64,000 bases of DNA, taken from assembly GCF_030013595.1 (NCBI RefSeq), contig NZ_CP122768.1; one strand, written 5' to 3'. Position numbers: made by a program. The stretch's first letter is position 1. Every line of letters begins with the position of its first letter. Source of the DNA: Escherichia coli (GTDB taxonomy: Bacteria > Pseudomonadota > Gammaproteobacteria > Enterobacterales > Enterobacteriaceae). Shown in pieces: positions 29,001 through 32,000 of this stretch.

Positions 29001-32000
29001 TGCCAGACAGCGTGCTTTGTGCGGGCTATCAGGCGTTTTATTCTTACTCTGCGCCGCATATGCGGGTGATGCGTGATCTGATAAAGCAGCATCGTTCTCC
29101 CATGGAGCTGATGACGATGCTGCGGTGACGTGAGCTTAAACGGGCTGCCCCTGATGCGACATCCGCGTCGCCAGCGGTAGCCAGCACAGCACGATCAACA
29201 ATCCCATTAAGGTCATCAACAACCCCAGGCTGCCCTGACCGGTTTGCGGCAACATCGCAGAGAGCGACGCCAGCACGCCGGAACCAATGTTTTGCAGACC
29301 GCCGACCAGCGCGCCAGCCGTGCCCGCCAGGAAGGGGAACGGTTCCATCGCGCCGCTGGTCGCCAGCGGAAACAGCATCCCGGCACCGAAAAAGAACAGC
29401 GCGGCGGGAACGAGCAGCGTCCAGACATTCATCACGCCAAACCAGTCGGGGATCCACATCAGTAAGCCAGCCAGCAGGCAGCAGATAACCGACTGCCACA
29501 TCAACGTTGAGAAGCGTTTATTAGGACGTCCGGCAAACCATGCCCCAAAAAATGCCGCCGGAATCGGCAGAATAAACAAAATACTGACCGTCATACTGCT
29601 CAGCCCTAACACCGCGCCCATCAGCACGCCGGAGCAGGCTTCAAAGGCGGCAATCCCGGCCAGACCGCCAATCAGCATCAGCAAATAACAGTTAAAACCG
29701 CTGTTACCGAAAAGCGTTTTATAACTGGTAAGCAGGCGTGTGCGCGGTGCGTCGACCGGACGCGTTTCCGGCATCCAGCGGGCCATACTGAAGGTCACAC
29801 CGGCACAAAGTACCAACAAAAAGAGATAACAGGCGCGCCAGTTCCACATCGTATCCAGCAGACCGCCGATTAGCGGTGCGAGCAACGGACTGACAAGAAT
29901 CCCCATATTTAACAAGCTGTTAGCGTGGCGCAACTGTGTCCGTTCATATAAATCACGCGGCAAAGTACGCGCCATTACACCGCCAACGCCGGTGCCCATG
30001 CCCTGCATCGCGCTGGCGGCAATCAATACCGTCAAACTGGAGGTCGTGACCGCGACCAGCGTTGCCAGCATAAAAATGGACATTCCGACGAGGATCACCG
30101 GTCGGCGACCCACACGGTCGGAAATCGGGCCATAAAACAGCTGTGAGACACCGTAAGTCAGCAGATAAGCGCCCATTACGCTCTGCACCGCCCCTTCACG
30201 GACGTTGAGATCGCGCGCCATATCGGCAATAGCTGGAATATAAATGGTTTGCGCCATCTGACCGACGGCCACGAGTAATACCAACATCAATAACAAATTG
30301 ACGTTTCTATGCCTTTTCATTATCACGGATGCTTTTATAAAAATAATTAGAATAAGTCACTACGCATTCCCATAAATGCGGGAGAGGAATCTATCACATT
30401 GATAAATGTTAGCCAGATATACGCCAGGAATGGGGAATTGTTTAGCGGCAGAATATGTAAACAAAAGCGGCAATAAATGTTGCCGGGAGGGATGGTAGGG
30501 CGGATAAGATGCATCAGCATCGCATCCGACACCAACCCGCACGCTAAATATGAAAGGGGAGCGGTTACCCGCTCCCCTTTGGTGCGACTTGAATCTGAAT
30601 TACTTCAGGTATTTCAGAACAGCATCAAGCAGTTGCAGTGCTGCAACAATGAGTTTGAGGATAAGAATGGCGATATCCACCAGGCTCATACGCGTCTCCT
30701 GTGGTTCAGGAGCACTGCCAGCTGACGTACCTTTCCGCTGCCTGTTGCCAGCTGTTGTGCACGCGGTATCTCAAGGAGAAACGTTGTGCTTGTTGACATA
30801 ACACAGTGTGCTCACGCGGGGTTAAGGCGCTGACGGCACCACCCGTTTCAGCCAGGACTTAGTGCGCCGGGTAACGATGCGGCCCCCGCATAACACATTG
30901 CGTACAGTGATATTATAGAAGTTTACTGTATAAATAAACAGTAATATTTGGACAAAACGCAAACTGTGATCGATACTCAACTATGCACTAAATACGTCAA
31001 AATTCGTGCCGAAATTGCGCGTTTTGCGCGGAACACGTATACTTTCTGTGTTGACATAATACAGTGTGCTTTGCGGTTACCAGCCGCGGGCGGCTGACGA
31101 AACCTCGCTCCGGCGGGGTTTTTTGTTACCTGCAATTCAGTACAAAACGTGATCAACCCCTCAATTTTCCCTTGCTGAAAAATTTTCCATTGTCTCCCCT
31201 GTAAAGCTGTGCTTGTATAAATATTGTTAAACACAAAACCAACAAGGTCCCCAATGACTACTTCCATGTTCAACGCAAAACTACTACCAACTGCGCCATC
31301 CGCCGCAGTGGTCGTCGTGCGTGTGGTGGTGGTCGTCGGCAATGCGCCGTAGGGACTGGAACAACACACGATTCCAAAACCCCGCCGGCGCAAACCGGGC
31401 GGGGTTTTTCGTTTAAGCACCTCCCGGAAAGTCGGCCCAGAAGAAAAGGACTGGAGCATGGCAAGTTCGGGCACAACATCAACGCGTAAGCGCTTTACCG
31501 GCGCAGAATTTATCGTTCATTTCCTGGAACAGCAGGGCATTAAGATTGTGACGGGCATTCCGGGCGGTTCTATCCTGCCTGTTTACGATGCCTTAAGCCA
31601 AAGCACGCAAATCCGCCATATTCTGGCTCGCCATGAACAGGGCGCGGGGTTTATCGCTCAGGGAATGGCGCGCACCGACGGTAAACCGGCGGTCTGTATG
31701 GCCTGTAGCGGACCGGGTGCGACTAATCTGGTGACCGCCATTGCCGATGCGCGGCTGGACTCCATCCCGTTGATTTGCATCACTGGTCAGGTACCCGCCT
31801 CGATGATCGGCACCGACGCCTTCCAGGAAGTGGACACCTACGGCATCTCTATCCCCATAACCAAACACAACTATCTGGTCAGACATATCGAAGAACTCCC
31901 GCAGGTCATGAGCGATGCCTTCCGTATTGCGCAATCAGGCCGCCCTGGCCCGGTGTGGATAGACATTCCTAAGGATGTGCAAACGGCCGTTTTTGAGATT

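What the first reader, a model, noticed from the sequence alone, without database searches (positions are those of the whole stretch)
31254..31410. Val/Leu-rich leader peptide and attenuator ahead of ilvB
The 32-codon leader contains AAVVVVRVVVVVG, a run of valine codons with leucine codons upstream, followed by a terminator hairpin. This is the classic attenuation arrangement for ilvBN and is intact here.
Basis: partly seen in the sequence, partly recalled or inferred. Interest (0 to 1): 0.3.

Follow-up and report, generated by a model that had tools for sequence, protein, structure and literature searches.

The report
E. coli ivbL leader-peptide attenuator of ilvBN
This is the well-known ivbL leader peptide and transcription attenuator that lets E. 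coli switch on its valine/leucine-pathway enzyme genes ilvBN only when charged valine or leucine tRNA runs short; it is intact here and entirely ordinary.

Summary
Window 31254-31352 (+) is a 32-codon ORF, MTTSMFNAKLLPTAPSAAVVVVRVVVVVGNAP. It is followed by a GC-rich hairpin (31377-31407) with a T-run (31405-31409) and lies 105 nt upstream of ilvB (31458). The ORF is annotated ivbL in 5,418 of 5,426 complete E. coli genomes. It passes Pfam IlvB_leader (75.7 bits, cutoff 25) and the NCBIfam IvbL equivalog (80.1 bits, cutoff 60). Across the attenuator it differs from K-12 by one base (31269 T for C, Leu6 to Phe). That position varies naturally, is predicted unpaired, and the allele is shared by 1,533 genomes.

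The refutation test fails. An antiterminator (31343-31354 with 31381-31392, about -22 kcal/mol) shares 31381-31388 with the terminator (-20.8). In folding with ribosome footprints, it forms when the ribosome stalls at Val19-Val26 and is blocked once the ribosome reaches the last codons or the stop.

In 75 distinct Enterobacteriaceae sequences the ATG-to-TAG frame is always kept. Both helices are nearly invariant, against 3% invariance at ilvB synonymous sites, so covariation is uninformative for them. Regulation by Val and Leu comes from literature on K-12.

Already known; low interest.

The parts
31145..31166 (+). CRP-like site AAACGTGATCAACCCCTCAATT. The left half GTGATC is conserved across genera, and other genera read TGTGATC-N5-CGCA.
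   Evidence: Phylogenetic footprint over 75 distinct sequences. The assignment as a CRP site is inferred from the consensus and from the title of Friden et al. 1982, as cited in PMC6123439. It was not tested here.
31190..31195 (+). Conserved TTGTCT block, a possible -35 element.
   Evidence: TTG is invariant in the footprint. It lies 20 bp from the TATAAA, which is too far for canonical spacing, so the assignment is uncertain. The consensus promoter scan found no promoter here.
31207..31222 (+). Nearly invariant block CTGTGCTTGTATAAAT, containing a -10-like TATAAA at 31216-31221. The transcription start is inferred at about 31225-31229.
   Evidence: Footprint. The start site was not determined here.
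31230..31247 (+). 5'UTR: a CA-rich stretch ACACAAAACCAACAAGG, with the Shine-Dalgarno AAGG at 31244-31247, 6 nt before the ATG.
   Evidence: Sequence. AGG/GGTCCC is conserved upstream of the ATG. GcvB is reported to bind the ivbL 5'UTR (PMC9299463; PMC11347164).
31254..31352 (+). ivbL leader ORF, 32 codons plus TAG.
   Evidence: Annotated ivbL. Pfam PF08049 75.7 bits and NCBIfam NF007579 80.1 bits. The frame is kept in 75 of 75 distinct sequences.
31281..31286 (+). Tandem Leu codons CTA CTA (codons 10-11).
   Evidence: Invariant at both amino-acid and nucleotide level across genera.
31308..31337 (+). Regulatory valine run VVVVRVVVVV: GTG GTC GTC GTG CGT GTG GTG GTG GTC GTC.
   Evidence: Val20-22, Arg23 and Val24-28 are invariant in the 32-codon peptides. 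Third codon positions are 82-100% conserved.
31337..31349 (+). Small hairpin CGGC-AAUGC-GCCG (-5.6 kcal/mol). It sequesters part of the antiterminator's 5' strand and acts as a protector-like competitor.
   Evidence: All 4 pairs are invariant. It is removed when a ribosome stalls in the second Val block.
31343..31354 (+). Antiterminator 5' strand UGCGCCG-UA-GGG, covering the last two sense codons, the stop codon and the two following bases.
   Evidence: It pairs with 31381-31392. 8 of 10 pairs are invariant and one changes G-C to G-U.
31357..31376 (+). Inner hairpin UGGAAC...GAUUCCA with a CA-rich loop, enclosed by the antiterminator.
   Evidence: It holds the one compensatory pair, A-U to U-A in 7 sequences.
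31381..31392 (+). Antiterminator 3' strand CCC-GC-CGGCGCA. It overlaps the terminator's 5' arm at 31381-31388.
31377..31414 (+). Intrinsic terminator (the attenuator). Stem 31377-31407 with one bulged G (31397/31398), loop 31389-31394, and U-tract TTTTTCGTTT at 31405-31414.
   Evidence: Energy -20.8 kcal/mol. 12 of 12 pairs are invariant and 29 of 31 columns are invariant. The bulged base is the main variable position: G, A or deleted. RNAalifold recovers the stem independently.
31458..33146 (+). ilvB, the acetolactate synthase I large subunit and the regulated gene.
33150..33440 (+). ilvN, the acetolactate synthase I small subunit.

Best explanation
This is the ivbL-ilvBN transcription attenuator of Escherichia coli.

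Transcription starts about 25-30 nt upstream of the leader ATG, and a ribosome begins translating the 32-codon leader.

When charged Val-tRNA and Leu-tRNA are plentiful, the ribosome runs to the last codons or the UAG. There it covers 31343-31354. The segment CCCCGCCGG (31380-31388) is then free to pair with CCGGGCGGGG (31395-31404). This GC-rich hairpin followed by a U-tract terminates transcription before ilvB.

When charged Val-tRNA (nine codons) or Leu-tRNA (the rare CUA CUA pair) is scarce, the ribosome stalls upstream. The strand UGCGCCGUAGGG (31343-31354) stays exposed and pairs with CCCGCCGGCGCA (31381-31392) as soon as that sequence emerges. The terminator's 5' arm is thereby sequestered, and RNA polymerase reads through into ilvBN.

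Shown here: the sequence features, their identity to K-12, family membership, the existence of mutually exclusive helices, their dependence on ribosome position in silico, and strong purifying selection.

Inferred or taken from the literature: the actual response to Val and Leu in vivo, the transcription start site, and cAMP-CRP dependence.
For: (1) Identity. The 401 nt around the leader are 99.3% identical to K-12, and the only difference within the leader ORF and attenuator is 31269. ivbL is annotated in 5,418 of 5,426 genomes. Pfam IlvB_leader scores 75.7 bits against a cutoff of 25, and the NCBIfam equivalog 80.1 against 60.

(2) Regulatory codons. Nine of ten consecutive codons are Val, which is unique in the window. 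Leu10-Leu11 and the Val block are invariant in 57 distinct peptides.

(3) Competing helices. The terminator is -20.8 kcal/mol. The antiterminator region folds to -21.9 kcal/mol when the transcript ends at 31394. The two share 31381-31388.

(4) Ribosome masking. With the A-site at Val20-Val26, P(antiterminator core) is 0.94-0.96. It is 0.27 at Val19 under this mask, 0.68 at Val27, 0.12 at Val28, and 0.00 from Gly29 to the stop. A stall at Val24-26 is the only state in which the antiterminator is the minimum-energy fold even with the whole terminator present. The energy gain from forming the antiterminator is largest, -17.4 kcal/mol, when the ribosome covers the small competing hairpin.

(5) Selection. 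29 of 31 terminator columns and 40 of 55 non-coding columns are invariant across 60 distinct sequences from about 20 genera. Only 5 of 169 (3%) ilvB fourfold-degenerate sites are invariant in the same genomes. ORF lengths are 96, 99 or 102 nt, so the frame is always kept. The one position that varies in the terminator's 3' arm is the predicted bulge.

(6) Literature on the K-12 sequence. An ivbL-gfp fusion is repressed by added Val and Leu but not by six other amino acids whose codons occur in the leader (PMC11187965). Attenuation control is stated in PMC6123439 and PMC11347164. A Term-seq 3' end named ivbL_t with weak, regulatable termination is reported in PMC9023263.
Against: Covariation cannot confirm either the terminator or the antiterminator, because both are almost invariant. 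The pairing model therefore rests on thermodynamic prediction plus conservation.

At equilibrium with the full terminator transcribed, the terminator wins in almost all ribosome states. The switch must therefore be kinetic, which was not simulated.

In a truncated, ribosome-free leader the antiterminator is also the minimum-energy fold. The simple model therefore does not by itself reproduce the efficient termination expected on untranslated RNA. Several alternative protector pairings exist and none is clearly favoured.

A stall at Val19 gave only P = 0.27 under the chosen footprint.

No Rfam family matches the leader. The consensus scans found neither the promoter nor the terminator.
Confidence: 0.96

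Rival explanations
1. The leader RNA is primarily a target, or sponge, of the Hfq-dependent small RNA GcvB and of RNase E. Its extreme conservation would reflect those interactions rather than ribosome-mediated attenuation.
For: [quoted passage not shown] RNase E sites are reported in the intergenic region (PMC11347164). CA-rich stretches are present at 31230-31245 and in the conserved loop of the inner hairpin at about 31363-31369.
Against: The same papers describe this as a layer added to attenuation, not a replacement. It does not explain the invariant Val and Leu codons, the conserved reading frame, or the terminator/antiterminator overlap. The published repression of ivbL by GcvB was weak.
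Confidence: 0.03
2. The hairpin is a constitutive terminator or insulator, for example shielding ilvB from upstream istR/tisB-region transcription. The Val-rich ORF would be an untranslated by-product of a G/U-rich structured RNA.
For: The terminator dominates at equilibrium in nearly all folds. The Val run (GUG/GUC repeats) takes part in predicted helices.
Against: The ATG, Shine-Dalgarno sequence, frame and stop codon are conserved in 75 of 75 distinct sequences, and indels come only in multiples of three. The N-terminal half varies at the amino-acid level while staying open. istR has its own terminator at about 31107-31124. A constitutive terminator 50 nt before an essential-pathway operon with no promoter in between would silence ilvBN. 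Published reporter data show amino-acid-dependent read-through.
Confidence: 0.01

Closest known systems
E. coli K-12 ivbL-ilvBN attenuator (Friden, Newman & Freundlich 1982, as cited in PMC6123439; Hauser et al. 1985, as cited in PMC11347164)
   Same: Same locus and the same neighbours (emrD, tisB/istR, ivbL, ilvB, ilvN). Between the promoter block and ilvB the sequence is identical except at one base. It has the same 32-codon leader, Val run, terminator and antiterminator segments.
   Different: Codon 6 is TTC (Phe) rather than CTC (Leu), leaving 2 Leu codons instead of 3. This is a common natural allele: the identical ORF is found in 1,533 genomes, against 1,788 for the K-12 allele. The position is variable between species (L, M, N, F, H, P) and the base is predicted unpaired.
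ilvL-ilvGMEDA and leuL-leuABCD attenuators of E. coli
   Same: Same class: a short leader ORF rich in branched-chain amino-acid codons, followed by alternative antiterminator and terminator hairpins (PMC6123439).
   Different: The leader peptides are different and so are the sensed amino acids (ilvL: Ile, Leu and Val; leuL: four Leu). The ivbL peptide matched only the IvbL models.
trpL attenuator (the textbook 1:2 / 2:3 / 3:4 model; own knowledge)
   Same: A ribosome stalling at regulatory codons decides between a 2:3 antiterminator and a 3:4 terminator. A ribosome at the stop codon blocks region 2.
   Different: Here the protector (1:2) element is weak or ambiguous. The candidates are a 4-bp hairpin at 31337-31349, a long-range closing helix 31246-51 with 31352-57, and the RNAalifold helix 31304-21 with 31329-46. 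In addition, the antiterminator's 5' strand overlaps the stop codon itself.

Membership tests
IvbL leader peptide (Pfam PF08049 IlvB_leader; NCBIfam NF007579 equivalog) | The peptide scores above the curated whole-protein cutoff of the family model. | tested here: met
   Pfam 75.7 bits (cutoff 25), E 2.2e-21, covering 1-32 of 32. NCBIfam 80.1 bits (cutoff 60), E 8.1e-23.
IvbL leader peptide (Pfam PF08049 IlvB_leader; NCBIfam NF007579 equivalog) | Encoded immediately upstream of ilvB-ilvN, on the same strand. | tested here: met
   The ORF ends at 31352 and ilvB starts at 31458, 105 nt later; ilvN is at 33150-33440. The arrangement is the same in K-12 and in strain 1190, and in 78 loci from other Enterobacteriaceae.
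Ribosome-mediated transcription attenuator (trp/his/leu/ilv class) | A short translatable leader ORF with a start codon and ribosome-binding site. | tested here: met
   AAGG lies 6 nt before the ATG. The ATG is invariant, the frame is kept in 75 of 75 distinct sequences, and ORF lengths are 96, 99 or 102 nt. Translation itself was not tested here.
Ribosome-mediated transcription attenuator (trp/his/leu/ilv class) | Clustered codons for the end-product amino acids. | tested here: met
   Nine Val in ten codons, plus CTA CTA. The cluster is unique in the window, with a mean of 0.05 comparable windows in shuffles, and is invariant across genera.
Ribosome-mediated transcription attenuator (trp/his/leu/ilv class) | An intrinsic terminator between the leader ORF and the first structural gene. 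| tested here: met
   A 12-bp GC-rich stem at 31377-31407 with U-tract, -20.8 kcal/mol. It is paired in 100% of sequences and recovered by RNAalifold. The simple scan missed it because of the bulge.
Ribosome-mediated transcription attenuator (trp/his/leu/ilv class) | An alternative antiterminator helix that is mutually exclusive with the terminator. | tested here: met
   31343-31354 pairs with 31381-31392. It shares 31381-31388 with the terminator's 5' arm. It is the minimum-energy fold for transcripts ending at 31392-31400.
Ribosome-mediated transcription attenuator (trp/his/leu/ilv class) | Ribosome position at the regulatory codons versus the stop codon selects the helix. | tested here: met
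   This test was in silico only. P(antiterminator core) is 0.94-0.96 for the A-site at Val20-26 and 0.00 from Gly29 to the stop. Kinetics were not simulated.
Ribosome-mediated transcription attenuator (trp/his/leu/ilv class) | Compensatory base changes supporting the helices. | tested here: inconclusive
   Terminator: 12 of 12 pairs never vary. Antiterminator: 8 of 10 never vary and one changes G-C to G-U. Only the inner hairpin has a both-sides change, in 7 sequences. The candidate protector shows no clear covariation.
Ribosome-mediated transcription attenuator (trp/his/leu/ilv class) | Read-through responds to the supply of the cognate amino acids in vivo. | not testable with these tools
   Published for the K-12 leader, which is identical apart from codon 6: repression by Val and Leu, and no response to six other amino acids (PMC11187965).
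cAMP-CRP-dependent ilvB promoter (Friden et al. 1982, title cited) | A CRP binding site upstream of the promoter. | tested here: inconclusive
   A CRP-like CGTGA-N6-CCTCA lies at 31148-31163, with the left half conserved across genera. Binding and the transcription start site were not tested.

The most novel reading that the evidence does not exclude
The near-total nucleotide invariance of the leader's 3' half across Enterobacteriaceae genera, including synonymous positions of the Val run, the CA-rich loop and the terminator loop, may exceed what a two-helix switch needs. It could reflect extra functions of the abundant terminated leader transcript, for instance acting in trans as a GcvB/Hfq sponge or as an RNase E substrate. 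Separately, the Leu6-to-Phe allele carried here, which removes one of three Leu codons, might slightly retune the Leu sensitivity of ilvBN in the lineages that carry it.
Probability: 0.12. Interest if true: 0.3.

Novelty: already known. Interest (0 to 1): 0.05.

Why it matters
It matters only as annotation. It confirms that this genome carries an intact, canonical ilvBN attenuator, so acetolactate synthase I should be under normal Val/Leu control. The comparative data add two small points. First, the attenuator's 3' half is among the most conserved non-coding DNA in this neighbourhood: 29 of 31 terminator columns are invariant, against 3% of ilvB synonymous sites. Second, the Leu6/Phe6 polymorphism lies in a freely varying, predicted-unpaired position. 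Nothing here changes current understanding.

Tried and rejected
- Rfam at E <= 1 over 30300-31700 gave no family for the leader on the + strand. It found only istR upstream and chance hits to the terminator on the minus strand.
- The consensus promoter/terminator scan found neither the ivbL promoter nor its terminator. The terminator was missed because its stem has a bulge, which leaves an 11-nt loop if no bulge is allowed.
- The original papers (Friden 1982; Hauser & Hatfield 1983 and 1984) are not held in the library. The published start site and the published hairpin numbering could therefore not be compared with my model.
- Covariation analysis of the terminator and antiterminator is uninformative because they do not vary. 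The apparent both-sides change in the RNAalifold protector helix (column 8 with column 44) is roughly what independent third-position variation would give, so I do not count it as support.
- I could not settle on a single protector (1:2) stem. The RNAalifold helix is -12.7 kcal/mol, against -18.3 for a competing local fold.
- The 165-aa ORF on the minus strand across the region (30977-31474) was dismissed as a mechanical ORF that overlaps conserved plus-strand features.
- The genome-contig scan returned only Enterobacteriaceae (83-99% IlvB identity), so more distant leaders that might show covariation were not sampled.
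Full report
**1. What is in the sequence**

Reading 30900-31800 and listing ORFs shows an ATG at 31254 opening a 32-codon frame that ends with TAG at 31350-31352. 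The peptide is MTTSMFNAKLLPTAPSAAVVVVRVVVVVGNAP.
- Codons 19-22 and 24-28 are Val (GTG GTC GTC GTG / GTG GTG GTG GTC GTC), separated by one Arg.
- Codons 10-11 are CTA CTA (Leu).
- AAGG lies 6 nt before the ATG.
- Downstream, CCCCGCCGG (31380-31388) and CCGGGCGGGG (31395-31404) form a stem that A-U pairs extend to 31377-31407. It has one bulged G and a CGCAAA loop. TTTTTCGTTT follows at 31405-31414.
- ilvB starts at 31458 and ilvN follows at 33150.

**2. Is it more than chance?**

Among all six frames of the 64-kb window, the only 10-codon windows with at least 7 Val are in this ORF. 100 shuffles gave a mean of 0.05 such windows. The 191-nt leader folds to -71.8 kcal/mol, against -58.4 +/- 4.4 for 200 dinucleotide shuffles (z = -3.06, none as stable).

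**3. Identity**

Megablast of 31100-31500 finds the region in 5,418 of 5,426 complete E. coli genomes, on chromosomes only and once per genome. The features under the match are annotated 'ivbL: ilvB operon leader peptide IvbL' and 'ilvB'.

The K-12 locus has the same order: emrD, ysdE, tisB, ivbL, ilvB. Alignment with K-12 shows three differences in 401 nt:
- one after the istR terminator;
- one synonymous change in ilvB;
- one in the leader, 31269 T for C, which turns codon 6 from CTC (Leu) into TTC (Phe).

The peptide passes Pfam PF08049 IlvB_leader (75.7 bits, cutoff 25) and the NCBIfam equivalog NF007579 (80.1 bits, cutoff 60).

The Phe6 ORF is identical in 1,533 genomes and the K-12 ORF in 1,788, so both are common alleles. 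Base 31269 is predicted unpaired, and the minimum-energy fold is the same for both alleles.

**4.

The full naked leader folds with the terminator in place. I masked a ribosome footprint up to 12 or 15 nt past the first A-site base and folded the RNA downstream.

With the whole terminator transcribed, the terminator dominates (P about 0.95) in almost every state. The exception is a stall at Val24-26, where another structure becomes the minimum-energy fold: UGCGCCG..GGG (31343-31354) paired with CCC..CGGCGCA (31381-31392). This helix uses 31381-31388, most of the terminator's 5' arm, so the two cannot coexist.

The decision is made while the 3' arm is still being synthesised, so I also folded transcripts ending at 31394. 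The probability of the antiterminator core by A-site position was:
- 0.94-0.96 at Val20-Val26;
- 0.27 at Val19;
- 0.68 at Val27;
- 0.12 at Val28;
- 0.00 from Gly29 to the stop codon.

Stalls at the two Leu codons also leave it free (0.95-0.96).

The energies are comparable: terminator -20.8 kcal/mol, antiterminator region -21.9 kcal/mol. A length series shows the antiterminator as the minimum-energy fold for 3' ends at 31392-31400 and the terminator from 31404 onwards.

The gain from forming the antiterminator is largest (-17.4 kcal/mol) when the ribosome also covers the small competing hairpin at 31337-31349.

The refutation criterion, 'absence of mutually exclusive hairpins', is therefore not met.

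**5. Limits of the folding evidence**

The switch has to be kinetic, and I did not simulate kinetics.

In a truncated ribosome-free leader the antiterminator is also favoured. The simple model therefore does not reproduce efficient termination on untranslated RNA.

Several protector pairings are possible:
- the 4-bp hairpin at 31337-31349;
- a long-range helix between 31246-51 and 31352-57;
- an RNAalifold helix between 31304-21 and 31329-46, which at -12.7 kcal/mol is weaker than a competing local fold at -18.3.

I could not decide among them, and the original papers with the published model are not in the library.

**6. Comparative evidence**

A scan of one genome per species with IlvB returned 80 loci, all Enterobacteriaceae. 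They include Escherichia, Citrobacter, Salmonella, Klebsiella, Raoultella, Enterobacter, Kluyvera, Kosakonia, Leclercia, Lelliottia, Pluralibacter and others, at 83-99% IlvB identity.

All 78 loci with enough upstream DNA carry the leader. In 75 distinct upstream sequences:
- the conserved ATG is in frame with the conserved TAG;
- there is no internal stop;
- ORF lengths are 96, 99 or 102 nt.

Among the 32-codon peptides, Leu10, Leu11, Thr13, Ala14, Ala18, Val20-22, Arg23, Val24-28, Gly29, Ala31 and Pro32 are invariant. Position 6 is L, M, N, F, H or P.

In the 60-sequence alignment from the Val run to the terminator:
- 29 of 31 terminator columns are invariant;
- 40 of 55 non-coding columns are invariant;
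- third positions of the Val codons are 82-100% conserved;
- by contrast, only 5 of 169 fourfold-degenerate ilvB sites at invariant residues are invariant in the same genomes, with a mean majority-base fraction of 0.67.

The main variable base in the terminator's 3' arm is the predicted bulge, which is G, A or deleted. This fits the pairing register.

Because the helices do not vary, covariation says nothing for or against them:
- terminator: 12 of 12 pairs never vary;
- antiterminator: 8 of 10 never vary, and one changes G-C to G-U;
- only the inner hairpin at 31357-31376 has a compensatory A-U to U-A change, in 7 sequences.

**7. Upstream region**

Footprinting shows four conserved features:
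- a CRP-like half-site (T/C)GTGATC at 31148-31154, within CGTGA-N6-CCTCA;
- an invariant TTG at 31190-31192;
- a nearly invariant CTGTGnTTGTATAAAT block at 31207-31222 containing TATAAA;
- the invariant CTACTA.

This is consistent with a CRP-dependent promoter and a start at about 31225-31229. The -35 assignment is ambiguous and nothing here measures transcription.

**8. Literature, all on K-12**

- ilvBN is controlled by attenuation through a 32-aa leader (PMC6123439, citing Friden et al. 1982).
- An ivbL-gfp operon fusion is repressed by added Val and Leu. The stated lower response limits are 0.298 mM Val and 0.018 mM Leu. A derived system did not respond to Ser, Ala, Thr, Gly, Arg or Pro (PMC11187965).
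- A Term-seq 3' end 'ivbL_t' shows weak termination strength (PMC9023263).
[quoted passage not shown] RNase E cleaves in the intergenic region (PMC11347164). These are additional layers of control, not alternatives to attenuation.

**9. Verdict**

The element is the already-known ivbL attenuator, intact, carrying a common Leu6-to-Phe polymorphism of no predicted structural consequence. Interest is low.

Noticed in passing
window 33500-36700: A low-GC island (32-39% GC, against 51-59% in the flanks) lies between ilvN and uhpA. It carries two paralogous ORFs, 33693-35000 (435 aa) and 35233-36681 (482 aa), which are 24% identical (E 2e-21) and have no Pfam match. In strain 1190, whose leader region is identical, the ORFs annotated in the corresponding ilvN-uhpA interval are 'hypothetical protein'. 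It looks like horizontally acquired DNA of unknown function.
   Followed up: partly
window 30600-31124: The tisB/istR type I toxin-antitoxin locus lies just upstream of the ivbL promoter. TisB (29 aa, MSLVDIAILILKLIVAALQLLDAVLKYLK) is at 30600-30689 on the minus strand. istR matches Rfam RF01400 over 30995-31124 on the plus strand (145 bits, E 1.4e-31). A LexA-box-like CTGTATAAATAAACAG lies at about 30927-30942.
   Followed up: partly
window 31254-31352 versus other E. coli: ivbL is polymorphic within E. coli. The window's ORF is identical in 1,533 genomes and the K-12 ORF in 1,788 of 5,418, so about 2,100 genomes carry other alleles at 95-99% identity. These were not examined.
   Followed up: no
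L007, L018, L021, L042, L049, L053 (ivbL-ilvB spacer): In several species (a Citrobacter, a Klebsiella, two Kluyvera and others) the distance from the leader stop codon to the ilvB ATG is 163-231 nt rather than about 100-107 nt. This implies an insertion between the attenuator and ilvB. Its nature was not examined.
   Followed up: no
window 31359-31370 and 31230-31245: CA-rich stretches occur in the conserved loop of the inner hairpin (AACAACACACG) and in the 5'UTR (ACACAAAACCAACAA). They resemble the CA-rich targets of the GcvB R1 region. Published RIL-seq/CLASH data place GcvB contacts in both areas.
   Followed up: partly
window 31367-31428, minus strand: The reverse complement of the terminator gives weak sub-threshold Rfam hits: Pseudomonas P6 3' end at 22 bits and STnc310 at 21 bits. 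Both are generic terminator-hairpin matches and were judged to be chance.
   Followed up: yes
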